This document shows positions 8,030 to 58,987 of a stretch of DNA of 64,000 nucleotides, piece after piece. The DNA lies in the IMG/VR virus record IMGVR_UViG_3300025073_000989. The stretch is one strand, 5' to 3'. The first letter of the stretch is position 1. The number at the start of each line of letters is the position of its first letter. The DNA is from a virus. Its lineage: Duplodnaviria > Caudoviricetes. The notes beneath the pieces are model-generated. The model saw only the letters and a program-made list of their open reading frames with translations, made no database searches and was not told the origin of the DNA. Both the position numbers and the translations under genes were made by a program.

Positions 8030-11000
8030 ATGTCTTCAGTACAGATTGATCAAAAATTGAAATTTCTCTGCGAAGGAATCAAAAAACAATTTTTTAGTAA
8101 ATCAAGTGTAGATCTGATCAGTAAAAAGAAAGAAGGAAATCTTAGTATTACTTTTGAAAACAACTCTTTATGGATCAATATTTATGATGGAAAAAATAGC
8201 CACAGCATAGCTATACCAATACCATATTTAGACAAAGATTTACAGCTTTTAGTAAAGAACGATGTAGTACGAGCAACTTGCCCGTATTTTGTAGTAGGAC
8301 TTAACCAAGAGTTAGATTATATGGATCTCCTGTATACGGTTATTTGTGGGGATCCGTCATGTATTATTGAGGAGGATATTTTTCAAAGAACGCCCTTTAT
8401 TCAGCAAATTAGCTATTCTATAGAAAATGGTAACACATCATTTATAGCCCTAAAACTACAAAAAGTTATCAACAATATAGTAAATAATTTACCACTGCAC
8501 GAGGGCTCAATGAAGTCTTGGATCATGAACAAACGGCTCATGTTTATAGATCCAACATTTAACGCTTTGATTAACCCGAAAGACAGACTTTCATATCAAG
8601 TAAGCAAAGCTGAAGCGTTTTTTAATAAAGGATGGACACAAATAGGTCTTCCTGATGGTACAATGGTAGATAAAAATTACATGTTGAAGGTAGATTTAAA
8701 GCGCTTTGTTCCTTTTGGAAACCAGTTTCACAACCCAGCTAGAAATTTATACTCTACATTGGGGATGAATGGCGACGAGCTGCCAATGGTTCGTTCTGAG
8801 TCAATGCAGATCCTTATTGATAAAGGTATAAGTAGAACAGGATGGAATTTGTTTACGGTTTTTTATGATATTCCTGATACATGGGAAGATCAAATAATGG
8901 TAGATAGTTCACATGCAACAAAATTTATAACATATACAAAAAGGTACCAATGCTTTGGCACTGTATTAGTAAAAGAAAACGACGATTTAAAACAAGGACA
9001 ACAACTATCAAAAGCAATAGACGGCAACGGTGAGATATTTGATGAATTAGCCGAAGAGGCACATGTATCTAAAATTAATGAAATACTAGTTAATGTTGGT
9101 GGTGTTCCAGTAAAAGGATTTAATGTTATAGTATCTTATAAACGATATCTAAAAGAGGGTGTAAAAATAACCAACCTTTCGGCAAACAAAGGTGTGATAC
9201 GATTAGGGAAGCTAGGTTTTGCTGTAGACCCAAAAACTGGAGAACAACGAAAAATAGATGTAATTGTAGGACTGTCAGCAGTTAAAAAAAGAAAGAATTA
9301 TGCTCAAATATTTGAAGCACTATTAAATGTTGTAAACCAAGAAAGAGTTACAATAGTAGCCGACGATATTAAAAGTACTCTCGGTGATATCAAAAATCGT
9401 CTATTGGCGGAAGGTTTTCCAGAAGACGGTAGTAGGATGTGTCATACATACGCAGGTAATTTTTCTGCACTATGTGGTACTGTTTTCTGGGGAGTTATCC
9501 ATGATGTAGAGAATACAATATGGGACAAAGATACGACGTTTGGGGTAAATGGTAGAGGTTTAAGGACAACTGGCTTAAAGTTTTCTACAGTTGAGTTTAG
9601 AGCGCTAGAAACACGCTTTGGTAAAGATAATCCAGTACTAGCAGAAGTGTTATCTTATTCCCAAGGAACAACCGATTTGACAAATATGTTGGATGTTCTA
9701 AAAAGTAAACTTAATATAATTAAACCAGAAACACCGTGTTTGACTATAGATAATGTTAGAGAGGTTGATCAAACAACGTCAACTATAGTAAACGGAGATA
9801 TACTTTACGGCACTGTTGTAGATGAAATGTTTTATCCTAATGGTTTTGTACTACAACTGCCCTATATTTTTACAACAGCCTTAAACGGGAACAATAAAGT
9901 TGTATATGAAGGCATAAAAAATACTAATGTAAGTGCCCACAAGAAAATTAGTATAGACAAATTATATATTCCATGTGGAAATTTAAGAAAGAGTTGGCGC
10001 CACGGTACAGCTAAGTATGGGTTAAGCGAGATAGGTTCCGCAGTAAATAGAATAGTAATTACATCAAAAAGGTTAATAAAAGAACCAACCTCTAAAAACA
10101 ACATTACTATGTATTACAGCGCAATATCAAACTACTTTAAGCTAATAAGTAGAATACTTGGCACTAAAAATGGAGAGCTAAATAACTACGGTATGGCTGT
10201 AAGATACCCATATTCTGCAAAAGCAGTTGCAACCTTAAGTACAACTTTACCAAAAAACGTAATAGAAATTAATTCATCAGTAGCAAAAAAATTACAAATA
10301 GAAACAGGAGATGTAGTACTAGTAGAAAGATTTCCATGTTTAGGTTTTATGTCGCTTAGGCCACAAAAAATAAAGGTTACAGAAGACGATAAATGCAGAT
10401 ACACGATACGTGTTAGCGGTAATAGTTTAGGTTCTATGGGGTTAGATTTTGATGGTGATGTTATATACATAGCTGCCTTTCATACAGAAGAAGCAAAAGC
10501 ACTTCTAAATAAAGAATGGAAAAATCCCGACAAAACGTGCTATGATATTATTAAAAAATACAACGTTCAAAAAAGTAACCCTAGATTACAGGAAGTTACT
10601 ATTGACAATATTGATATAAAGGGATTTTCTCCGCTAACTATAGAAGAGCAAACAGGTATAGTAGGAGAACTTGCGGGAGTAAAAGCCTTTACTGGACCGG
10701 TAATAGCCTTTTTATACAATTTAATGAGAATTCTTGAAAATTCTAATATAAATAATAAAAAAAGAACGGCCGCCGGTCTAGAAGAAATGTTTACCATAAT
10801 AGGAGAATCAGTTTTTGATTTAAAGCATGGGATCAAATCCCCACATGACGTGTTTGTAGAAGCAATATGTACAGCAGATATAAATACGTTAGTAGAAAAT
10901 GACTTTGATAGAAGTACTTCTACTATTTTATGTAATTTAATAAAACAAAAAGCAAAAGAACTCGGAGTTGTTGATTTAAAAACTTATCATGAAAGGGCTA

Positions 11001-11338
11001 AAGAAACTGGAGGTACAATAGTTGGTAAAATTGTAAGAGAGCAAAATAAAGTATATTTTGCCTCTAGAGCAATACTAGAAGCAAATAGCTTGTTGGAGCA
11101 CTTAAATAGTCCTATAGTAGACATCCCTAGCAGGATATTAAGTTGGACATTGTCTGGCAAAGCAGAGGAAAGGGACACTGCTCTAGATAAAAAGCGACAG
11201 AAAGCACAAATAGAAGAAATTCAAATTGAACCTGTTAAAGACGCCTGTAATATGTTATGTGCATACATAGAAAAATATCTTAATGGGGAAAAAATAGAAA
11301 ACAAATTTAACTATAAAGAAGCGTTTTTTCACAACTAA
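8030..11338 (+). CDS. Single-chain two-barrel RNA polymerase (fused, minimised beta + beta' homolog)
   Basis: Beta-like GVKITNLSANKGV (two Lys 8 apart), KIDVIV..KRKNYAQIFE and GLKFSTVEFRALE; then beta'-like GTKNGELNNYGMAVRYPYSAKAV, VLVERFPCL and GLDFDGDVIY (DxDGD at 10445-10459). Confidence 0.9.
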   Translation: MSSVQIDQKLKFLCEGIKKQFFSKSSVDLISKKKEGNLSITFENNSLWINIYDGKNSHSIAIPIPYLDKDLQLLVKNDVVRATCPYFVVGLNQELDYMDLLYTVICGDPSCIIEEDIFQRTPFIQQISYSIENGNTSFIALKLQKVINNIVNNLPLHEGSMKSWIMNKRLMFIDPTFNALINPKDRLSYQVSKAEAFFNKGWTQIGLPDGTMVDKNYMLKVDLKRFVPFGNQFHNPARNLYSTLGMNGDELPMVRSESMQILIDKGISRTGWNLFTVFYDIPDTWEDQIMVDSSHATKFITYTKRYQCFGTVLVKENDDLKQGQQLSKAIDGNGEIFDELAEEAHVSKINEILVNVGGVPVKGFNVIVSYKRYLKEGVKITNLSANKGVIRLGKLGFAVDPKTGEQRKIDVIVGLSAVKKRKNYAQIFEALLNVVNQERVTIVADDIKSTLGDIKNRLLAEGFPEDGSRMCHTYAGNFSALCGTVFWGVIHDVENTIWDKDTTFGVNGRGLRTTGLKFSTVEFRALETRFGKDNPVLAEVLSYSQGTTDLTNMLDVLKSKLNIIKPETPCLTIDNVREVDQTTSTIVNGDILYGTVVDEMFYPNGFVLQLPYIFTTALNGNNKVVYEGIKNTNVSAHKKISIDKLYIPCGNLRKSWRHGTAKYGLSEIGSAVNRIVITSKRLIKEPTSKNNITMYYSAISNYFKLISRILGTKNGELNNYGMAVRYPYSAKAVATLSTTLPKNVIEINSSVAKKLQIETGDVVLVERFPCLGFMSLRPQKIKVTEDDKCRYTIRVSGNSLGSMGLDFDGDVIYIAAFHTEEAKALLNKEWKNPDKTCYDIIKKYNVQKSNPRLQEVTIDNIDIKGFSPLTIEEQTGIVGELAGVKAFTGPVIAFLYNLMRILENSNINNKKRTAAGLEEMFTIIGESVFDLKHGIKSPHDVFVEAICTADINTLVENDFDRSTSTILCNLIKQKAKELGVVDLKTYHERAKETGGTIVGKIVREQNKVYFASRAILEANSLLEHLNSPIVDIPSRILSWTLSGKAEERDTALDKKRQKAQIEEIQIEPVKDACNMLCAYIEKYLNGEKIENKFNYKEAFFHN

Positions 11339-11895: not shown

Positions 11896-12291
11896 ATGGA
11901 AAAGAAACAGTATAAAGGAATTACGTTTAACGAGTGTAGTTTTATGGGAAAAGTACTTGGGGCACCAAAGTTTGTTCCGGCAGGCGATTCTGAGTATGTT
12001 TTTATTAACCTCTCTGTTCAACAAAGAGAAATGGACGCAAACCAACAATTTGCTGATATTGAAGTAGTTGTACCGCTATTGGTTATGGAGGCCTCTAAAG
12101 TAGAAGTTGTAAAGAAATACGTACAAGAAGGACGCCAGCTGAAGGTAGATGGTTATTACAAAAGTTGGCAAAACGACGGTCGTGCGGGGCATGCCATATT
12201 TGTAACTAAAATACAACTTGGTGATAGGCCATATGTACCAAAAGAGGAACAACAGGCTGCCTCAGCCATGGCTAACCTTCCACCAATGTAA
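11896..12291 (+). CDS. ssb: Single-stranded DNA-binding protein (OB fold)
   Basis: FNECSFMGKVLGAP, GRQLKVDGYYKSW pattern; start placed at the ATG at 11896 after GGGAG. Confidence 0.65.
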   Translation: MEKKQYKGITFNECSFMGKVLGAPKFVPAGDSEYVFINLSVQQREMDANQQFADIEVVVPLLVMEASKVEVVKKYVQEGRQLKVDGYYKSWQNDGRAGHAIFVTKIQLGDRPYVPKEEQQAASAMANLPPM

Positions 12292-12294
12292 TTT

Positions 12295-12416
12295 ATATAA
12301 CGCCTAAATAAGCCGCCGATATGTAGAGCGGTGGCGAAACTACAAGGAGAATTTGAATGAACAAACTTCGCAACAGAACAGAGCTTCTAGCGGCCGGCTT
12401 GATTTTTTTGTTGGGC
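12295..12416 (-). repeat. Integron attC site A1 (minus polarity)
   Basis: Ends ATATAAC...GTTGGGC on +; arms AAAT-AAGCC-GCCG / CGGC-c-GGCTT-g-ATTT with two unpaired bases on the right arm. Confidence 0.8.
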
Positions 12417-12635
12417 GTTTCGGCCTTGGCTGGGTGCACAGACGCAAAAATGAAACAGTTTACAGCCCTTGGGTCGCCAGGAGAGATTGTTTGTTTTTCT
12501 GGCGGTAAAGAAATTTACAAGGGAATTTCAACCGGGAAAATATCTACAGAACAAGGGAGTGACGGATGGTATTTCCAGGAGCAGACCACCGGAAAACTAA
12601 TCCGTGTTTCTGGCGACTGCCTTATTCGGAACTGA
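12357..12635 (+). CDS. Cassette-borne lipoprotein
   Basis: Signal peptide with lipobox LAGC; AAGGAG RBS and ATG lie inside attC A1. Confidence 0.75.
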   Translation: MNKLRNRTELLAAGLIFLLGVSALAGCTDAKMKQFTALGSPGEIVCFSGGKEIYKGISTGKISTEQGSDGWYFQEQTTGKLIRVSGDCLIRN

Positions 12636-12636
12636 C

Positions 12637-12724
12637 GCCCAACGGTATTTTAACCTGCCGCGCCTATGGCTTGGCAGCAAATGCGACCGCGCTGCTCGCG
12701 GTCAGGTTGAAAATTTTGTTATGA
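12637..12724 (-). repeat. Integron attC site A2 (minus polarity)
   Basis: GCCCAAC (complement of GTTGGGC in A1)...GTTATGA; arms ATTTT-AACCTG-CCGCG / CGCGG-t-CAGGTT-g-AAAAT. Confidence 0.85.
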
Positions 12725-12754
12725 TGCGTAAGTTTTATTCCATTTTTTAAAAAG

Positions 12755-13945
12755 GTGAATTGTATGAAACAAGTAATTTCTACGGAACAGAAGCCTATTA
12801 AGTTGTGGTTGGATGATATTGAAGACGGGGCGCTTGCCCAAGCCAAGAACCTTGCCAACCTTCCTTTTATTTTCAAGCACATTGCTATTATGCCCGACTC
12901 GCATCAAGGCTACGGAATGCCTATTGGCGGGGTCATGGCCACACAGGGCGTTGTTGTCCCGAACGCTGTCGGTGTTGATATCGGATGCGGCATGTGCGCC
13001 CTCAAGACTTCCATTGCTACCCTTGACCAAGCAACGCTGAAAAAAATTATGGGCGGCTCGAAGGAATATAAAGGCGGCATAAGAAGTGCTGTGCCAGTCG
13101 GGTTTTCGCACCATTCTAAAAAACAGGACGAGGGATTGATGCCAAGAATTACAACTGGCTTGCCAATTGTTGAGAAAGAATACAGTTCCGCCTTGAAGCA
13201 GATCGGAACCCTTGGCGGAGGCAACCATTTTATTGAGATACAACAAGGCAATGATGGATTTGTGTGGTTGATGATCCATTCCGGCAGCCGGAATATAGGG
13301 TTTAAAGTGGCGCATCATTATAACGATGTGGCTATTTCTCTGAATGAGCGGTGGCGTTCTGCTGTACCGGCAAACTGGCAACTGGCGTTTTTGCCTTTGG
13401 ATAGCGAAGAAGGGCGAAGTTACTTGGCGGAAATGCAATACTGTGTTGATTTTGCGCTTGCCAGCCGGGGGCTTATGATGGAGTTGGTTAAACGTTCTAT
13501 TGTTGAGGTGATTGCAGATGTTACTTTTGGCGATATCATAAACATTGCCCATAACTACGCCACTATGGAGCACCACTTTGGAACAAACGTGATGATTCAC
13601 CGTAAGGGGGCTACAAAAGCCTACCCTGACCAACTTGGCATTATTCCCGGCAGCCAAGGGACTGCAAGCTACATCGTTCGGGGTAAGGGTGAACCTGAAA
13701 GTTTTATGTCTTGTTCTCATGGTGCCGGTCGCAAGATGGGGCGCAAACAAGCCGAGCGAGAACTTGACCTTAATGCCGAGATTGAAAGGCTTGATTCTAT
13801 GGGCGTTATTCATGCAATCCGATACCAGAAAGATTTAGATGAAGCACCAGGGGCTTATAAAGATATTTCTACCGTGATGAGTAACCAAACTGATTTAGTT
13901 GATATTGCAGTGGAACTAAGGCCACTGGCGGTTATTAAGGGGTAG
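12755..13945 (+). CDS. rtcB: RtcB RNA 2',3'-cyclic phosphate/5'-OH ligase, cassette-borne
   Basis: MPDSHQGYGMPIGG, VGVDIGCG, GTLGGGNHFIE, MIHSGSR, IHRKGAT, SCSHGAGR, DEAPGAYKDI; visibly GC-richer than flanks. Confidence 0.95.
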   Translation: MNCMKQVISTEQKPIKLWLDDIEDGALAQAKNLANLPFIFKHIAIMPDSHQGYGMPIGGVMATQGVVVPNAVGVDIGCGMCALKTSIATLDQATLKKIMGGSKEYKGGIRSAVPVGFSHHSKKQDEGLMPRITTGLPIVEKEYSSALKQIGTLGGGNHFIEIQQGNDGFVWLMIHSGSRNIGFKVAHHYNDVAISLNERWRSAVPANWQLAFLPLDSEEGRSYLAEMQYCVDFALASRGLMMELVKRSIVEVIADVTFGDIINIAHNYATMEHHFGTNVMIHRKGATKAYPDQLGIIPGSQGTASYIVRGKGEPESFMSCSHGAGRKMGRKQAERELDLNAEIERLDSMGVIHAIRYQKDLDEAPGAYKDISTVMSNQTDLVDIAVELRPLAVIKG

Positions 13946-13947
13946 CA

Positions 13948-14034
13948 TCATAACGCCAAAATAAGCTGTGCCGCCTATAGCGGTGCAGCAAAAACACCGG
14001 ATTTCCCGGCATCAGCTTAATTTTATTGTTATGC
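13948..14034 (-). repeat. Integron attC site A3 (minus polarity)
   Basis: TCATAAC (complement of GTTATGA in A2)...GTTATGC; arms AAAAT-AAGCTG-TGCCG / CGGCA-t-CAGCTT-a-ATTTT. Confidence 0.85.
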
Positions 14035-14357
14035 CATTCGTGGCGAGGAATTTCCTAATGGTTAAAATGAAAATAATTGACATCGATGGTGGCATCGGCA
14101 TGGAGTTCCCGAATGGTGTGGACTGCCTCAAGCAACATGGATTCGGGATGTTTCTTGAGTCCTGGGCGGATGGGGAATTGGTGATTACGCCAGAGGCAAA
14201 AAGGGCAATCCTCGAACACGGCAAGGAAATGAGTTTGGGAGGTATCGCGTTTTTCGATCAAAAAATGATCGGATTCATGCAGAACGAGATTCCTTTCGAT
14301 GGCATATCGGTTAACGGGAAATCCAAGGATTGGATTCGGGAGTTACCAGAGGCATAA
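13968..14357 (+). CDS. Cassette-borne hypothetical protein (start uncertain: 13968, 14031 or 14058)
   Basis: ORF fills the space between A3 and A4; its stop TAA is part of GGCATAA, the core-site complement. Confidence 0.6.
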   Translation: MPPIAVQQKHRISRHQLNFIVMPFVARNFLMVKMKIIDIDGGIGMEFPNGVDCLKQHGFGMFLESWADGELVITPEAKRAILEHGKEMSLGGIAFFDQKMIGFMQNEIPFDGISVNGKSKDWIRELPEA

Positions 14358-14435
14358 TATCGCTGGCGTAACCAGCCTGTCGCACATGAAAGGAGATTGA
14401 CACCATGACAACGCCTATTGACGTAATTGTTAGCT
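14352..14435 (-). repeat. Degenerate attC site A4
   Basis: GCATAAT (one mismatch to the GCATAAC expected from A3)...GTTAGCT; partial arms GGCGT/ACGCC and TGTC/GACA. Confidence 0.5.
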
Positions 14436-14638
14436 GGGTGCGCTACCAAGCGCGAATGTTTAAGCACCGACCACGGATGTTGTGGAACCGCGCATTCGTG
14501 CGGAAAAATGAGTTTCACAACAGCCTCGATATGGATGTCCGGTCGATGTACGACATGAACACTGAAGACCGGCAGCGATACATTGCCGATTTGATACGCC
14601 GCAGGAACATTGCACATGAGCGTGACATTGATAGCTAA
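14405..14638 (+). CDS. Cassette-borne hypothetical protein
   Basis: AAGGAG RBS and ATG inside A4; ends at AGCTAAC (14633-14639), the complement of GTTAGCT. Confidence 0.65.
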   Translation: MTTPIDVIVSWVRYQARMFKHRPRMLWNRAFVRKNEFHNSLDMDVRSMYDMNTEDRQRYIADLIRRRNIAHERDIDS

Positions 14639-14642
14639 CACA

Positions 14643-14698
14643 ATATGATATGAAATTTAACAGTGTCTGTATAGCACTAGTTAAGTTTCATATCATAT
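14643..14698. other. Long AT-rich hairpin at the array boundary
   Basis: ATATGATATGAAA-t-TTAAC-AGTG...CACT-a-GTTAA-g-TTTCATATCATAT. Confidence 0.7.
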
Positions 14699-17182: not shown

Positions 17183-18325
17183 ATGAAATTTAAGATACAA
17201 ATATCAGACAAAATGACACATGAGGACCAAAATGCTAAAATATTAAGAATACCGCGAGATTTAAGATCAGAACTTGGAATAAGTATTGGTGAAACTATAG
17301 ATCTTGGTACAAAAGATGGTAGTTTAATCAAATTAAACATAGGTCAAGCCTTTATAGAAGATAAAGATACAAACAGTAGAGTAGCTTTTGTTTCGAAACT
17401 TATTTTTGATGTATTGGAATTTATAGACAACGAAGAAAAAAACCCAATACCTCTAGTTAATGATATCACTTTAGGGGCTGATCCTGAATATTTTTTACTA
17501 AAAAAACAAAATCATAACATAGTAACAGCAAATAGCTTTTTTGGTAAATATGGTGCGATTGGCTATGATGGTATACTAGCAGAAATAAGACCAGAACCAC
17601 ATACATGTGAGGAAGGATTAACAAACAATATAAAAGGGTTACTTCAGAAAGCAAAAAACATAATAAGTACACATAAGACTCTAGGACAAGATACTACATT
17701 AGTGGCTAAATCTCATCATAGGGGAGTAGTTGCTGGATTTCATCTACATTATGGTATTATTTCTCCAGCATTACTAGCTCCAAATTACAACTATAATGTA
17801 TTAAATGTAATAATAGAACAAATAGTTAGAGTGTTAGATTACTATTTGGGAATTCCAAGTATAATACCTGAAGGGATTGAAGACTCGTCAAGAAGATGTG
17901 CCCCATTTACTTCTTATGGTAAAGCCGGAGACTATAGAGTAGATCATAGAACTTTAGAGTATAGAGTTCCAGGAGGACATCTTTTAAGGCATCCAAATCT
18001 AACTAAAGGTTTAATAGGTTTAGGGGCAGCTGTAATAGAAGATATTATAAGTAGAATAAAAGTATGTTCAGACAATTTTGATTTATCAAAAATATCCAAT
18101 ATCAACGAAAAAGATCTATATCCAAACATTCTTAGTAAGCAAGAATTAATTCAGACAATAGGTACTCCTGATACAAAAAAAGCAAAAGACAAATTAGACA
18201 GTATCTACAAGGATGTATCAAGTATGGTAAGTTACGGAAAAAGGAAAGAAACTATAGACTTGTTTTTCTCAGTCTTAGAAGAAAAATATAGTTGTTATAT
18301 TGAAGACAACTGGCAACTAAAATAG
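17183..18325 (+). CDS. phiEco32-like COOH-NH2 ligase, copy 2, with extra N-terminal domain
   Basis: TLGADPEYFL, DGILAEIRP, AGFHLHYG, YGKAGDYR, LEYRVPGG. Confidence 0.8.
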   Translation: MKFKIQISDKMTHEDQNAKILRIPRDLRSELGISIGETIDLGTKDGSLIKLNIGQAFIEDKDTNSRVAFVSKLIFDVLEFIDNEEKNPIPLVNDITLGADPEYFLLKKQNHNIVTANSFFGKYGAIGYDGILAEIRPEPHTCEEGLTNNIKGLLQKAKNIISTHKTLGQDTTLVAKSHHRGVVAGFHLHYGIISPALLAPNYNYNVLNVIIEQIVRVLDYYLGIPSIIPEGIEDSSRRCAPFTSYGKAGDYRVDHRTLEYRVPGGHLLRHPNLTKGLIGLGAAVIEDIISRIKVCSDNFDLSKISNINEKDLYPNILSKQELIQTIGTPDTKKAKDKLDSIYKDVSSMVSYGKRKETIDLFFSVLEEKYSCYIEDNWQLK

Positions 18326-18351
18326 TAACTATTAATAGCAGGAGTAATTTA

Positions 18352-20028
18352 ATGCGGAATAGTAAAGAAAGGTGGTTATTCTTTAAACATCCATCTAAAC
18401 CGGCAATTTCTCACGAAGAAACCTTTTACTGGAAAAACAACCTAAAGAAAATACTAAAAGTAGGAATGGAATTCGAGTTTAATCTACCCAATAAAAATGG
18501 TAGTTGTAAAGGAGACAATGAGGCATGTCCATGCAATTATTTGAATATTTCTAATTGCTGGACGCAGTGTGCAAAACAAGAAACATGCAGTATATCGAAA
18601 AATTTTAATTTTTGTCACAATGTAACTCTGGACTGTAGTAAAACAGACTGTAAAAAATGCAACAAATTTAAGTTAAGTTGTCCGAATATTAGCTGCTCTC
18701 TTTTCGAAAGCGCTTGTTCTTCGTGCCCTCTTTTTAAACAGGATTGTTATACATGTGAGCATAAATATGATCCAGAGAAAAACCCAGATCTTATTAGAAC
18801 CTCTATAGAGAATGAACTAAAGCCCAGTAACAGTTATGGTGTAATAAGTGAATCTGGAGTACATAGTGTTGTCAAAGATGGAAGTTTATTGGGCGGAAAA
18901 GGGATGGAGATAATTACCATAGGCCGTAGAATAGATTATTGGGAATTTTTCAAAATGGCTAAAACCATTATCGACAAAGCAGTAGCCAAAGGTGCTTATG
19001 TAAATGAAAGATGTAGTATACATATGCATGTTCTTGCAAGCTACTATTCTAGGCTTTTTGAAAACCAAGAGCAGCACGGAATTCCAAAGAAAATTAACGA
19101 ACTAGAAAAACCCATGCCAGAAATAATTTTAGCCAACTTTCATCAGTTATGCAGAAGATATCAAAATGCTATGACTTGGATGATGATGGGACTAGATGAC
19201 CCCAAAAAAATGACAAGATGGGAGAAGTTCAGGGTATCTATACTAGAAATTTCCCCCGTACTTAGTTCCATGGAACACGTTAAAGAGGCAGTTCGAGTAC
19301 ATTCCGGCGGAAATAAGTACGGTTGGGTCAATTATAACTATACAGAATTATTACCTAGTGGAAATGTCAATAGATTTCATGTCGAAATGCGAGCACTCGA
19401 TGGTATTCTTTGTCCTAGTGTTATTGCTGCAATAGCCTGCCTTTACTATGCATTGGCAATAAAAGCTGTAGAAATATCAAAGTATGGATTAGTAGAGGTT
19501 GGGAGTAAAGACTGGATGGCTACAGCATTAGAAGCAAAACAAGCCATTCTTAATAATATGAAGGGCTACCAAGACGGTGATAGGTGGGCAGATACTAGAA
19601 AAACCCTTAATTACAGAGAGTTATTTGTAGAAGAATCTTTAGATTTAATAAGGCAACTAAAACATATACTGGTAGAAATAGGCCCAGCCTATCAAGTACT
19701 GGAACAATTAGCAGAAAGACCTATTGCTATAAGGAGATGTGCAGGAGAAAGCTGGGCATCGATTGAGGAGACTTTGGCTGTTTCAACTAGACAAGAAAAC
19801 AATTTAGAGAGTCTTCTTTATGAGTATATAGACCTAAGATATATAGCAGAATGTAATGATATTGAAGAGTGGATATCGTCGGCTCTAGAAATCATCGTTG
19901 AAGAAAACAAAATTGAACACCGTTCAATAGAGGAGTTAAGAGAAGAAATAAAACAACAGATAAAAGGAAAACAAGATGACGGTGAAATTATATGGTCAAA
20001 GAAGTTAGGAACTATAGTAGTGGTGTGA
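18352..20028 (+). CDS. Putative amidoligase (Amidoligase_2-like) with Cys-rich insertion
   Basis: VGMEFEF, VKDGSL..GMEIIT, CSIHMHV, KYGWVNY, VEMRALDG; 16 Cys in about 90 residues after the first motif. Confidence 0.75.
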   Translation: MRNSKERWLFFKHPSKPAISHEETFYWKNNLKKILKVGMEFEFNLPNKNGSCKGDNEACPCNYLNISNCWTQCAKQETCSISKNFNFCHNVTLDCSKTDCKKCNKFKLSCPNISCSLFESACSSCPLFKQDCYTCEHKYDPEKNPDLIRTSIENELKPSNSYGVISESGVHSVVKDGSLLGGKGMEIITIGRRIDYWEFFKMAKTIIDKAVAKGAYVNERCSIHMHVLASYYSRLFENQEQHGIPKKINELEKPMPEIILANFHQLCRRYQNAMTWMMMGLDDPKKMTRWEKFRVSILEISPVLSSMEHVKEAVRVHSGGNKYGWVNYNYTELLPSGNVNRFHVEMRALDGILCPSVIAAIACLYYALAIKAVEISKYGLVEVGSKDWMATALEAKQAILNNMKGYQDGDRWADTRKTLNYRELFVEESLDLIRQLKHILVEIGPAYQVLEQLAERPIAIRRCAGESWASIEETLAVSTRQENNLESLLYEYIDLRYIAECNDIEEWISSALEIIVEENKIEHRSIEELREEIKQQIKGKQDDGEIIWSKKLGTIVVV

Positions 20029-20038
20029 GGTTTAATTA

Positions 20039-20851
20039 ATGTGCGCAATTTTTGGAATAGGTCTAACCAGTACTCATAGATTTAGAAATAAATTGTTTTT
20101 TAAAAAATTACTAAACAATTTAATGCTAGAATCGGAATTTAGGGGTATGGACGCCACTGGTCTAGCTTTTACAACAGAGAGTAAAATAGTAGTAATAAAA
20201 CATAACTACCGCGCCAATCGATTTCAAGAACTACCAAGAGTACAAAAAGCGATCGATAGTTATGGTGACATATCAAAAATAGGTGGTCCAGATAATTTAT
20301 ATTCTATTATAGGTCATTGTAGATTTAAAACAAAAGGGATTCCAGAAAATAATAAAAATAATCACCCCATCATAGCCAATGAAGTAGTCGGAGTACATAA
20401 CGGTGTAATATCAAATGACGATATATTATTTAGTAACTATTCTAATTTACCATATATTGAAAGGGCTGGGCAAGTAGATAGTGAGATTATTTTTAGACTA
20501 ATAGATTTTTTTATAAATAAAGGTTTAACGACAGAACAAGCAATTAAAGAGACTACTGCCAGAATTGCTGGGTCTTTTGCTTGTGCTTTAGTAACAAGCT
20601 GGGCACATGAAAATCTATATTTGTTTAAGAATGACAACCCAATAGCATTATCCTACTTTCCAAAAGTAAAGATTTTTGTTTTTGCCTCGGCTAATGCCAT
20701 TATTAAAAAAGCAACAAATGAACTCTTCTTAGGAGAAGAACGAGAGGTAGAAATACCACCGCAACACCAGATAGTTATAAACTTAACTGATGGGATAACA
20801 AAACTATCGCTACTAGGTTTAAATGTATTAAATACTAATACTAATAGGTAA
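20039..20851 (+). CDS. Class II (Ntn) glutamine amidotransferase, copy 1
   Basis: N-terminal MCAIFG, RGMDATG, GHCR, NNHP, GVHNGVI, VDSE. Confidence 0.85.
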   Translation: MCAIFGIGLTSTHRFRNKLFFKKLLNNLMLESEFRGMDATGLAFTTESKIVVIKHNYRANRFQELPRVQKAIDSYGDISKIGGPDNLYSIIGHCRFKTKGIPENNKNNHPIIANEVVGVHNGVISNDDILFSNYSNLPYIERAGQVDSEIIFRLIDFFINKGLTTEQAIKETTARIAGSFACALVTSWAHENLYLFKNDNPIALSYFPKVKIFVFASANAIIKKATNELFLGEEREVEIPPQHQIVINLTDGITKLSLLGLNVLNTNTNR

Positions 20852-20860
20852 ATTAGAATT

Positions 20861-21664
20861 ATGAATAGAAATCTATTATATAGAATTAAAAAAATATTAT
20901 ATGGTGGTAATCCGTATGATAAGCTTATGGTAGCAAACTTAAAGACGTCTTATAGCAGTGACCATGATTTTGTAATTCCAATAGGTACTCCTTGCTTATT
21001 AAGCAAGCATATATTTCATAGCGACAGTAAAATAGTAGAAGTAATGATAAAATATCCATTCCTTAAGTATTTAAGTTTTGATACTACTGTACTAATTCGA
21101 AAAGAAAATCTTATTCCAACAAAAAATAATTTTCCAAATGAACATACAATTATTTCAGAGAAAGATTTTTGTAGCGCAAAAAGATTTGATGATTTAAGAT
21201 TACTAGTAGATACCTACGGTGCTGTAACTATAGTTTTTGATACTATACCAAAAGGGGACCCATTGGCTGTTGTAGAAAGTCTAGTAAACAAATTTTACTA
21301 TAAAACTTGTGTAGGACATAGTATAGATTCTTCCGCAGAAGGAAGTACAAATATTTTTATAGATATTGTTAAGATAGAAAATGTAATTCCCATAATAAAA
21401 CCTAATAGAAATAATGGATTGTTTATATCAGTATACACTTGTGATGTACAAGAAAATATGTATAATGATTATGTAGTCTATAAAAATTATATAAATTTAA
21501 TAGTAAGCGATTATTTAGATAATGTATTTGTTTTAGATGGTTCCTTTATAAGAAGTATAAATTTAGGAATAGAAGATAAACTAATTTTTACTCTTAGGCA
21601 AGTATTCAAAAACATTTTAATAAAAAACAAGCAAAAAATTAAACAAACAAATAAGGAGAACTAA
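20861..21664 (+). CDS. Hypothetical protein within the ligase cluster
   Basis: 267 aa ORF, operonic. Confidence 0.55.
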   Translation: MNRNLLYRIKKILYGGNPYDKLMVANLKTSYSSDHDFVIPIGTPCLLSKHIFHSDSKIVEVMIKYPFLKYLSFDTTVLIRKENLIPTKNNFPNEHTIISEKDFCSAKRFDDLRLLVDTYGAVTIVFDTIPKGDPLAVVESLVNKFYYKTCVGHSIDSSAEGSTNIFIDIVKIENVIPIIKPNRNNGLFISVYTCDVQENMYNDYVVYKNYINLIVSDYLDNVFVLDGSFIRSINLGIEDKLIFTLRQVFKNILIKNKQKIKQTNKEN

Positions 21665-21667
21665 CGT

Positions 21668-23395
21668 ATGTGTGGTGTTGTTGGATTAATAGCTTTCACA
21701 GAAACACCGAAACAGGAAGAGGCTATTAGACAAGAAGCTATGATATTTTTACTAACAGAAATTCTTCAGCAAACAATAACTAGAGGTTCAGACGCTACCG
21801 GAGTAGCATCCTTATTTAGAGACGGCCAGTACTTTGGTCAAAAAATGGGAATATCTGCTATAGAGTTTATAGCTAGATTTGGAGGAAAGAACGAAGATTA
21901 TGAGGGATTCTTAAGGTCCTGGAGAAAACACGGAGCTCCAGCTACATGTTCAATTGGTCATTGTAGAAAGAGCTCTGTTGGAAATTCTACAAATAACGCC
22001 AATAACCATCCAATAAAAGTAGGAGAAGTTTTGGGAATACACAATGGCACTCTTACAAATCATAACACTATATTTAAGAATTTTGGTTGTAAGAGGGACG
22101 GTACTGTTGACAGTGAGGCCATATTTAGGCTGCTTCACTTCTTTTCACAAAACGGCACAAACCCATTTACTTTAGATATGGTACAAGAAGTAACTGCTAG
22201 ATTAGAGGGATCTTATTCTGTACTAGCATTTAGTGGTAATAACCCATTTCAAGTAGTGGCGTTTAGGGATTCAAGGCCCATGGAGTTTGCCCTAATAAAG
22301 CCACTTAAACTTGTAGTAGTAGCCTCAGAAAAAGATTTTATAAAAAAATCCCTTTTTAAAATGAATAAGGAAACGCTACTATACGGTAATAAAAGTAACT
22401 TTCCAAGACTTAATGCTAAGAGTATTGATTTTTTTAGTCTTCCTGACGATTCAATTGCAATTTTTAATTTAACAAAAAAAGTAGGGGAAGACACTCAGAT
22501 AGAAGAGTTGTATGATTTTGAGCGGATTAAAAAGACAAATAAAATTTGGAGAGCTGGATATAATTCGTACCCGGCTAAGACAGTAAACGAAGTTAATCCT
22601 ACCGCCCATCAAACTACGCCTCAAACAAATAATTTACCGACACCTGTCCAAGCTAAAGCAGTATTCATATTAGAAAATACTCAGCCTGCGGGTATTGGTA
22701 GAATTTATAACAAAGTCTTGAAGAAATACGTTGCAGCTTCGCCAGCTGTAGATATAACCACACCTATCAGAAATGTAAAAGTTAGTGCTTCTGAAGATAA
22801 AAGTAAACCTGAAATTATAGAAATTGAAGCTATCGATGTAGATGAAAGTGTAGATATAAACACTACAGCTAACGAAGAGGCTTTAAATACTGTAGAAGTT
22901 GTAATGGATGTAGACCCAGAAGCAATCGAAGCAGCAAACTTAGCTGTAAAAAGCTTAAAAAAGTATGAAAATGAAGAAGAATTATTAAATGATCTAGAAA
23001 TGACTAAAGATCAAGTAATAGTTCTAAAAGACCTACCAATACACTCTTTAGCAAATAAAGTAAGAAAAGCAGCATTCAAAGTTGGAGTTCATGAGGGCTA
23101 CGTATTAGGAAAGAATAAGTCGGACCCTGACTCAACAAATAAAAAATTAGAAAATGAAAAGTACATAAGGATATTAAAAACTATTTCTGGAATAATGGCT
23201 ATGCTTATCGAATCCACCAATGTATCTGCTATTGATTCCTCAACGATGGAACGTGTAGTTACAAAAGCATTCTCCGATGGCGAGGAAATAAGTAGTGATG
23301 CTATAGGTAGTTTATTTTCAATTGGTGATATGCGCAAACATGTTGTATTTAGACAAATAAGAGATATGGTTCAGTGCAAAGAACACAGGAGATAA
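21668..23395 (+). CDS. Class II (Ntn) glutamine amidotransferase, copy 2, with long C-terminal extension
   Basis: MCGVVG, RGSDATG, GHCR, NNHP, GIHNGTL, VDSE. Confidence 0.85.
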   Translation: MCGVVGLIAFTETPKQEEAIRQEAMIFLLTEILQQTITRGSDATGVASLFRDGQYFGQKMGISAIEFIARFGGKNEDYEGFLRSWRKHGAPATCSIGHCRKSSVGNSTNNANNHPIKVGEVLGIHNGTLTNHNTIFKNFGCKRDGTVDSEAIFRLLHFFSQNGTNPFTLDMVQEVTARLEGSYSVLAFSGNNPFQVVAFRDSRPMEFALIKPLKLVVVASEKDFIKKSLFKMNKETLLYGNKSNFPRLNAKSIDFFSLPDDSIAIFNLTKKVGEDTQIEELYDFERIKKTNKIWRAGYNSYPAKTVNEVNPTAHQTTPQTNNLPTPVQAKAVFILENTQPAGIGRIYNKVLKKYVAASPAVDITTPIRNVKVSASEDKSKPEIIEIEAIDVDESVDINTTANEEALNTVEVVMDVDPEAIEAANLAVKSLKKYENEEELLNDLEMTKDQVIVLKDLPIHSLANKVRKAAFKVGVHEGYVLGKNKSDPDSTNKKLENEKYIRILKTISGIMAMLIESTNVSAIDSSTMERVVTKAFSDGEEISSDAIGSLFSIGDMRKHVVFRQIRDMVQCKEHRR

Positions 23396-57547: not shown

Positions 57548-57640
57548 GCCCAACAAGTTAATCCAGCGGACGGCTGGAAGCTTGCTGAGGCGCTGCGCGG
57601 CGAGCTTATTGGCAGCCGCCGCTGATTAATAACGTTAGCA
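57548..57640 (+). repeat. Integron attC site B2
   Basis: GCCCAAC (complement of GTTGGGC in B1)...GTTAGCA; TTAATC-c-AGCGG-a-CGGCTG / CAGCCG-CCGCT-GATTAA. Confidence 0.9.
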
Positions 57641-57678
57641 AAACAATTACAAAACTTAAACCAACAAAGGAAACTCCT

Positions 57679-57933
57679 ATGAAAATCAAGTTTACATGGA
57701 TTAAAACTATTGATAACCCACAAGCCAGAACTTTTATAGAAAATAAAATTACTGAAATAATAAATTTAAAGAAATTTCCTGAGCATATCTATGAACAAAA
57801 TATTATCACCATACAATTAGAATCAAATAGAAAAGCTGAATATTCTGTGGACGGTATTATATTTGACCAAAATAATAAACAACTACACCGTTTTTCATTT
57901 GACTGTAGTAATGGTATCAACTCGCTAACATAG
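57679..57933 (+). CDS. Cassette-borne hypothetical protein (sense)
   Basis: AAGGA RBS; stop overlaps a core-like CGCTAAC at 57923-57929. Confidence 0.6.
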   Translation: MKIKFTWIKTIDNPQARTFIENKITEIINLKKFPEHIYEQNIITIQLESNRKAEYSVDGIIFDQNNKQLHRFSFDCSNGINSLT

Positions 57934-57936
57934 CAA

Positions 57937-58209
57937 TTAAATTTCGCGCGAAGAAGTGTTGTCCTCATTTATTGGGGTCTCTGGTTTCTGCTCAACTAAT
58001 CGGCTAATATCTGACATATTGTACCATATATGGTCGCCATTATATTTAACCATTATCCAGTCTTTAAAAAAGTGTATAAGGTAGGGTGTATAGTTATGAA
58101 CTTCCCCGTTCGTTTTAATTATGTGTAAATTTGCTTCAGGGTGTAATGAAGCTATATCATGACACATTTTATTTTCTGTTCGAACATCTTTAACTATTAA
58201 ACGTTCCAT
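57937..58209 (-). CDS. Cassette-borne hypothetical protein (antisense)
   Basis: AAAAGGAGATTTAT-ATG; RBS lies in a 12-bp inverted repeat 58209-58254. Confidence 0.6.
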   Translation of the reverse strand: MERLIVKDVRTENKMCHDIASLHPEANLHIIKTNGEVHNYTPYLIHFFKDWIMVKYNGDHIWYNMSDISRLVEQKPETPINEDNTSSREI

Positions 58210-58276
58210 ATAAATCTCCTTTTGTAGCCGCCAAACTTCGTTAGGAGATTTATAAAAAACCTAAAGAAAAACGGCG

Positions 58277-58366
58277 TGCTAACAACTGGTTCAACCTGAA
58301 CGGAACCAGCACTTGTTGTTTAAAAAATTACCCTTATTGGCCGTCAGGTTAACCAGGGTGTTATCT
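58277..58366 (+). repeat. Integron attC site B3
   Basis: TGCTAAC (complement of GTTAGCA in B2)...GTTATCT; TGGTT-c-AACCTGA-a-CGG / CCG-TCAGGTT-AACCA. Confidence 0.9.
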
Positions 58367-58391
58367 TCAAACTAAATAAAAATACTAAAAA

Positions 58392-58769
58392 ATGACTACA
58401 ACAATACTTGAATTAATTAATAACCACTGGACCACACTGATATCATTATTGATAACTATATGGTCTCTTTTAAGAAACTACAATTGGAAAAGAACATTAA
58501 GTATATACTTAAGTTTAATTGTAGATAACTCACATTCAGTTACAAAGTTAATAGCTGAGCATTGTGAAGACACTTGTATTAAACATAGTTCAGAAAACCT
58601 TAATCATCAAATAACTCATTTATTAAGTACCTTTCCAGCGCTGGCTAAAAAATGGATTTATATTAATAAACCAGAAGCTGAATGGCAGTCGTGGGAACAA
58701 AAACTTCAAATATCTATGGACACATACCGCTTGCGAAATCGCTTGCTAACTTTATTAAAACTGAAATAA
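58392..58769 (+). CDS. Cassette-borne membrane protein (sense)
   Basis: N-terminal hydrophobic helix; starts 25 nt after GTTATCT. Confidence 0.55.
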   Translation: MTTTILELINNHWTTLISLLITIWSLLRNYNWKRTLSIYLSLIVDNSHSVTKLIAEHCEDTCIKHSSENLNHQITHLLSTFPALAKKWIYINKPEAEWQSWEQKLQISMDTYRLRNRLLTLLKLK

Positions 58770-58887
58770 CAGCAACAGGTATTACAACATACTCAAAAAG
58801 TCCCATAAGTAACGGAGCAAAATCTATAATATCAAGTAAAGTAAAAATCATTACAGCAAATAAAACTAACATTACTATATTAAACAT
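58714..58887 (-). CDS. Cassette-borne two-helix membrane protein (antisense)
   Basis: Minus strand GTTATCT-GGAGGTGTAT-ATG (MFNIVMLV...). Confidence 0.6.
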   Translation of the reverse strand: MFNIVMLVLFAVMIFTLLDIIDFAPLLMGLFEYVVIPVAVISVLIKLASDFASGMCP

Positions 58888-58899
58888 ATATACACCTCC

Positions 58900-58987
58900 A
58901 GATAACAATTACATCCACCAGACGGCGAGAAGCTCGGAGTTTTTTATTCAAGCTTTTTAGCGCCGCTGGTGATGTAAGGCGTTATAC
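58900..58987 (+). repeat. Integron attC site B4
   Basis: AGATAAC (complement of GTTATCT in B3)...GTTATAC; TTACATC-c-ACCAG-a-CGGCG / CGCCG-CTGGT-GATGTAA. Confidence 0.9.

What the first reader, a model, noticed from the sequence alone, without database searches (positions are those of the whole stretch)
12340..12450. RBS, start codon and signal peptide are written inside the attC site itself
The lipoprotein ORF has its AAGGAG RBS and ATG (12357) in the loop of attC A1, and its hydrophobic signal segment AAGLIFLLG is the attC arm and core (GGCTTGATTTTTTTGTTGGGC). The 14405 ORF likewise starts in A4 and reads IDVIVS through GTTAGC, and 13968 can read QLNFIVMP through A3. The recombination site therefore doubles as translation-initiation region and coding sequence. 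Because the fused segment depends on the attC, hairpin folding could also gate translation.
Basis: seen in the sequence. Interest (0 to 1): 0.65.

Follow-up and report, generated by a model that had tools for sequence, protein, structure and literature searches.

The report
Recombination hairpin doubling as gene start
In this large phage-like genome, a mobile-gene recombination hairpin (attC) lies back to front at the head of its own gene and also carries that gene's ribosome-binding site, start codon and most of its signal peptide; the same head is attached to an unrelated lipoprotein in another virus, so it may be a reusable "start and export" part.

Summary
Confirmed for A1 and A4, not for A3. 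RBS (12344), ATG (12357) and residues 1-20 of a 26-residue lipoprotein signal peptide lie inside attC A1; no usable start follows the core. The extra bases show that the genes sit on the attC bottom strand, so each attC heads its own gene: the start travels with the cassette and is not an order-dependent fusion. A homologous ORF4 cassette keeps the same head between other neighbours (L038). In viral contigs 41 of 225 dereplicated attCs carry SD+ATG on the bottom strand, none on the top strand; 37 read out into the gene (metagenome set: 6 of 151). New here: virus locus L281 has the A1 head, 89% identical up to the lipobox cysteine, on an unrelated mature protein. Hairpin gating is unsupported: the RBS is predicted accessible. 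GTG 13968 has no SD and is buried. The scan found the inverted RBS-in-attC layout before on other genomes (e1-5214830, e1-5377723, e1-5320424); my searches found no paper on it. Nothing shows translation directly. New variant of a known kind.

The parts
12295..12416 (-). attC A1, 122 bp; conventional top strand is minus, so the + (gene-sense) strand is the recombinogenic bottom strand; expected crossover in AAC at 12299-12301
   Evidence: extra bases in the arm opposite AAC on +; detector finds it on + only; rebuilt circle junction folds at -23.5 kcal/mol with the R box paired at P 0.98 or more
12344..12349 (+). Shine-Dalgarno AAGGAG in the attC loop, 7 nt before ATG
   Evidence: L281 has a one-base variant at the same place
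12357..12635 (+). 92-aa predicted lipoprotein; no Pfam or PHROG family; widespread in viral contigs
   Evidence: 52 homologues, 529 cluster representatives, conserved Cys27
12357..12437 (+). signal peptide (26 aa) plus lipobox Cys; residues 1-20 encoded inside A1, the hydrophobic LIFLL by the T-rich L''/spacer/R'' arm
   Evidence: hydropathy and Cys position 27 against family median 17; no homologue shares this N-terminus
12298..12437 (+). portable head (attC + RBS + ATG + whole signal peptide) shared with an unrelated lipoprotein in L281/L283
   Evidence: 125/140 bases identical, then 55/195; BLASTP match ends just after Cys
12637..12724 (-). attC A2, head of the rtcB cassette; no start inside
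12764..13945 (+). rtcB (PF01139), own SD and ATG after the core
13948..14034 (-). attC A3, head of cassette 3; no credible start inside
14058..14357 (+). 99-aa orphan ORF with own SD after the core; the 13968 extension is unsupported
14352..14435 (-). attC A4, degenerate (15-bp in-frame deletion, 3 extra bases at the crossover) but keeping RBS (14389-14395) and ATG (14405)
   Evidence: alignment with the intact copy in L038; folding z 0.23 against -3.35
14405..14638 (+). 77-aa ORF started inside A4
   Evidence: 74% identical homologue P0055 started in the same attC loop
14633..14698 (.). array entry: bare core (14633-14639) complementary to A4's core, next to an AT-rich phage hairpin (14643-14698); no attC follows the last gene
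   Evidence: (I15)
11896..12291 (+). phage ssb-like gene just upstream; the array lies in a + strand gene run
   Evidence: weak PF00436 hit, E 0.018; GC about 46% in the array against about 32% around it

Best explanation
This is an integrase-less array of four integron cassettes in a large phage-like genome, with every gene on the attC bottom strand. Each attC therefore lies at the 5' end of its own gene. By the established bottom-strand rule an integrase supplied in trans cuts in the left AAC, so the mobile unit is attC + gene + stop codon (inferred). In cassettes 1 and 4 the variable loop, which the integrase tolerates in almost any sequence, holds the SD and ATG; the ribosome reads out through the L'' and R'' boxes in one of the two stop-free frames, and in A1 the T-rich arm gives the hydrophobic core of a lipoprotein signal peptide. 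The start is constitutive and travels with the cassette, so the gene can be translated wherever it lands inside a phage transcript. Shown: positions, polarity, lack of another start, conservation in L038 and L281, enrichment and frame bias across phages. Inferred: real translation from 12357, lipidation, integrase activity on A1, transcription by read-through from upstream phage genes.
For: Polarity. Array starts with a full attC and ends with a bare core. ORF4 homologue keeps the head with different neighbours on both sides. Homologues have their own shorter signal peptides (median Cys 17); the family also occurs in a forward cassette (L032) and in an inverted cassette with ATG after the core (L034), so the A1 N-terminus is an add-on that the window copy cannot do without. 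Same head, in frame and without indels, on another lipoprotein. Survey: 41/225 bottom strand, 0 top strand; frames 29:1:11 with the TGA-blocked frame avoided; only 8 of 37 have their own SD start after the core. Neighbouring genes run on the bottom strand at 72 against 8 viral sites, and 17 against 62 metagenome sites. Family matches begin right after the core (phrog_424, phrog_2993, phrog_1273, PF01507). A4 lost its stem by an in-frame deletion but kept RBS and ATG.
Against: No integrase motif in the window or integron integrase in ten virus records, all incomplete. A1 in its present context folds no better than shuffles (z -0.48). The head-versus-tail test is small and not independent (6 against 2 pairs). 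Some gene bodies occur with different heads. The survey rests on one attC sequence pattern and scans cut at 120 rows. An in-frame deletion has a 1 in 3 chance by itself.
Confidence: 0.75

Rival explanations
1. Order-dependent fusion: recombination occurs at the G|TT next to the gene, so the attC and its leader belong to the upstream unit and are joined to whichever gene body follows.
For: Same gene body with different heads that differ right up to the GTT (L140 against L149; also L114/L146/L254, L125/L139), and one leader family on many unrelated bodies. Top-strand recombination exists at low frequency (PMC5027507, PMC8946536).
Against: Polarity and array ends fit the bottom-strand rule; ORF4 keeps its head in L038; the window/L281 exchange point is at the Cys codon about 25 bases past the core, not at GTT. 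It may be a minor route of head exchange, not the rule.
Confidence: 0.12
2. The hairpin gates translation: folding of the attC in the mRNA hides or frees the SD and AUG.
For: Forward attC hairpins lower translation of downstream cassettes (review PMC8876359); a few surveyed loop starts cost over 10 kcal/mol to open.
Against: At A1 the AUG is 96% unpaired and opening costs 3.2 kcal/mol, no more than most other starts tested in the window; loop starts as a class equal ordinary starts; A4 lost its stem and kept the start.
Confidence: 0.1
3. The SD and ATG in A1 are unused relics; the lipoprotein gene is silent or starts at a TTG after the core.
For: No direct expression evidence; a charged residue (E9) and a long n-region make the signal slightly atypical; many phage attC loops hold decayed SD/ATG-like remnants.
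Against: The head is conserved in frame on two different lipoproteins, SD-ATG spacing is intact, no workable downstream start exists, and the survey shows strong strand and frame bias.
Confidence: 0.08

Closest known systems
CALINs in phage genomes (Qi et al. 2023, PMC9892861) and attG-type genomic insertion (Loot et al., bioRxiv 10.1101/2022.09.11.507474)
   Same: attC-separated cassettes without an integrase in a phage; the entry point is a bare GTT core that fits the GWT attG consensus.
   Different: The passages read describe typical arrays and mention neither inverted genes nor starts inside attC; here all genes are on the bottom strand and two start inside the site.
attI1 ORF-11/ORF-17/ORF-18 translation-initiation elements of class 1 integrons (reviewed in PMC8876359)
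   Same: A recombination site supplies SD and ATG to genes lacking their own initiation region.
   Different: Those lie in attI, act on whichever cassette is first, mostly by coupling; here the start is in attC, travels with the cassette and is fused in frame.
Short ORFs inside forward attC sites (Jacquier et al. 2009, as reviewed in PMC8876359)
   Same: Translation inside an attC.
   Different: Top strand, short peptide entered by reinitiation; here bottom strand, own SD, N-terminus of the full protein including a signal peptide.
Synthetic protein-coding attC sites (Nivina et al. 2020, PMC7439510)
   Same: Shows that an attC can encode protein and still recombine.
   Different: Engineered internal linkers; this is a natural case at the gene start.

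Membership tests
integron attC site | RYYYAAC and GTTRRRY cores, complementary across each cassette | tested here: met
   A1-A3 intact, A4 damaged
integron attC site | L boxes about 5 bases from the cores, with extrahelical bases on one arm | tested here: met
   two extra bases in the arm opposite AAC on +
integron attC site | folds as a single-stranded hairpin | tested here: inconclusive
   A3 z -4.4, A2 z -1.8, A1 z -0.5 in place; A1 pairs correctly in the rebuilt circle junction; A4 does not
integron attC site | recombined by an integron integrase | not testable with these tools
   needs an attC x attI assay; indirect support from the ORF4 cassette among other neighbours
canonical gene cassette | gene on the top strand with attC at its 3' end | tested here: not met
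   all four genes on the bottom strand with attC at the 5' end
CALIN | two or more attC sites with no integron integrase nearby | tested here: met
   three intact sites plus one damaged; no integrase motif or similarity in the 64-kb window; rest of the genome not available
bacterial lipoprotein (SPase II substrate) | basic n-region, hydrophobic h-region, lipobox with invariant Cys | tested here: met
   by inspection and hydropathy, SignalP not available
translational attenuator or RBS-sequestering hairpin | SD/AUG paired in a stable or switchable stem | tested here: not met
   (equilibrium model only)

The most novel reading that the evidence does not exclude
Phage-type inverted attCs are reusable expression heads: an attC plus RBS, start codon and, as here, a complete lipoprotein signal peptide that is grafted onto new open frames by a process other than the integrase crossover. 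The window/L281 pair, joined exactly at the lipobox cysteine, would then be a trace of how new cassettes are made, and phages would build new exported proteins from such heads.
Probability: 0.3. Interest if true: 0.82.

Novelty: new variant of a known kind. Interest (0 to 1): 0.62.

Why it matters
Textbook cassettes put attC behind a promoterless gene. In the viral contigs sampled here the usual layout is the reverse, and about a fifth of the sites double as the gene start, so a DNA recombination site is also under protein-coding constraint. It affects annotation (starts inside attC, attCs that look misoriented), gives a natural counterpart to engineered coding attCs, and offers a handle on the open question of how genes become attached to attC sites: one head on two unrelated lipoproteins marks a junction that is not the integrase crossover.

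Tried and rejected
13968 start: no SD, buried, not called. Gating: not supported. Rfam: no relevant match. Empty-site relatives: none found with the ssb or 14740 proteins in viral contigs, so the pre-insertion site is only reconstructed. No match of the A1 head or the L281 mature domain in INPHARED; the head was found only in L281 among viral contigs; no relative of the L281 mature domain (the Atlas DUF6440 lead at 0.84 is below its reliable range). Orientation by longest open frame was too noisy and was replaced by neighbourhood strand. No integron integrase in ten virus records, all partial. Whole genome and sequencing runs not available. Literature searches for inverted cassettes, starts within attC and SD in the variable terminal structure returned nothing on point; the library lacks many subscription papers. 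The genome scan gave one non-cassette homologue. No structure or complex prediction was run: not relevant to the question.

Full report
Setting. The window looks like part of a large phage genome (RNA-polymerase-like gene 8030-11338, ssb-like gene 11896-12291); the lipoprotein is on record on contigs up to 275,832 bases. A GC-richer island (about 46% against 32%) runs from 12295 to 14639 and holds four genes and four attC-like sites: A1 12295-12416, A2 12637-12724, A3 13948-14034, A4 14352-14435.

Observation. AAGGAG (12344), ATG (12357) and codons 1-20 of the 92-aa ORF lie inside A1; the T-rich arm reads LIFLL and the lipobox Cys is residue 27. After the core there is no ATG or GTG before Cys, only two TTG without SD. 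A4 likewise holds AAAGGAG (14389) and ATG (14405). The third case fails: GTG 13968 has no SD, needs 15.5 kcal/mol to open, and databases call the gene from 14058, which has its own SD. rtcB also starts after its core. So two of four cassettes start inside the site.

Polarity. On the + strand the unpaired bases of A1-A3 lie in the arm opposite the AAC. PMC5027507 states that this is the bottom-strand arrangement, and the bottom strand is about 1000-fold preferred (PMC8946536). The genes therefore lie on the bottom strand, and the crossover is expected in the left AAC, right after the previous gene's end. Each attC then belongs to the gene that follows it. The array ends agree: a full attC precedes the first gene and only a bare core follows the last. 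Joining each gene's own tail to its own head gives well-paired sites for A1-A3. The ORF4 cassette occurs in L038 with the same head, intact, between different neighbours; the window copy has lost 15 bases of stem in frame and has 3 extra bases at the crossover, and no longer folds, yet keeps RBS and ATG.

Is the N-terminus ancestral? No. The family is widespread; members have their own signal peptides, with Cys at a median position of 17, mostly in ordinary phage gene runs. One is in a forward cassette with its start after the core (L032) and one in an inverted cassette with its ATG after the core (L034). None shares the window's first 18 residues.

Same head, other protein. A pattern scan for long A1-type sites returned one locus, L281. 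It matches the window at 125 of 140 bases from the left core through SD, ATG and the whole signal peptide to the Cys codon, without indels, and then at 55 of 195; BLASTP aligns only the head. It is on record in three groundwater contigs. The exchange point lies about 25 bases past the GTT, so neither integrase crossover explains it; whether it reflects cassette formation or one later recombination event cannot be told from a single pair. A second, unrelated attC (L067) also encodes a hydrophobic stretch before a lipobox in the same reading frame.

Generality. One generic attC pattern was scanned in viral and in metagenome contigs (each cut at 120 rows). In viral loci 30 of 109 sites have SD of 5 nt or more plus ATG in the loop on the bottom strand, none on the top strand, 2.4 in shuffles; the ATG frame is open in 25 of 30 against 6 of 60 other frames. 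With a wider detector and dereplication by gene body: 41 of 225 against 0; frames 29:1:11, avoiding the frame closed by the TGA in L''; 37 open, only 8 with their own SD start after the core; metagenome set 6 of 151. Flanking genes run on the bottom strand at 72 against 8 viral sites and 17 against 62 metagenome sites (simple ORF picker). Thirty loop-started proteins fall into 25 families, and known domains begin right after the core. A few bodies occur with different heads, so heads are sometimes exchanged.

Gating. SD and AUG of A1 are predicted accessible (3.2 kcal/mol; AUG 96% unpaired), and loop starts do not differ from ordinary starts in the same loci (p=0.81). The loop presents the start; gating is not supported by an equilibrium model.

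Mechanism. Inverted cassettes carry their own start in the one part of attC that is free to vary, and so can be translated wherever they land in a phage transcript. Shown: anatomy, polarity, conservation, statistics. Inferred: translation, lipidation, an integrase from the host (none in the window; none in ten partial virus records), entry at a GWT-type site.

Prior knowledge. Phage CALINs (PMC9892861), attI1 ORF-11/17/18 and short ORFs in forward attCs (PMC8876359) and synthetic coding attCs (PMC7439510) are the neighbours; I found no paper on natural bottom-strand starts, within a library that is incomplete. The scan has reported the layout on at least three other genomes, so the layout is not new to the scan; the signal-peptide head shared by unrelated lipoproteins and the decayed A4 are what this locus adds.

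Verdict. Real; first reading partly supported; new variant of a known kind; interest 0.62.

Noticed in passing
window 57548-58987: Second array of three attCs whose bottom strand is the minus strand, matching the minus-strand gene run there: same inverted polarity as array A.
   Followed up: partly
window 14643-14698: AT-rich 19-bp-arm hairpin next to the array's bare entry core; may be part of the phage-side insertion site or a terminator-like element.
   Followed up: partly
window 14358-14360: Three extra bases sit at the predicted crossover of A4 compared with L038, suggesting an off-register recombination event.
   Followed up: partly
L041:4073-5272: Another virus carries a different RtcB next to an attC resembling A3, again with the gene on the bottom strand.
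   Followed up: partly
L075, L110, L128, L145, L146 (attC loops): One attC family gives the same 13-residue leader, related to the start of window ORF4, to several unrelated small phage proteins.
   Followed up: partly
L140 vs L149; L114 vs L146 vs L254: Same gene body with different attC heads, differing up to the GTT in one pair: possible top-strand or homologous head exchange.
   Followed up: partly
L283:3388-4350: An adenine/cytosine DNA methyltransferase gene follows the L281 lipoprotein cassette, within the same cassette-like run.
   Followed up: no
window 17183-23395: Run of genes that by their sequences look like amidoligase/COOH-NH2 ligase and glutamine amidotransferase types, as seen in some large phages (own reading, not tested).
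   Followed up: no
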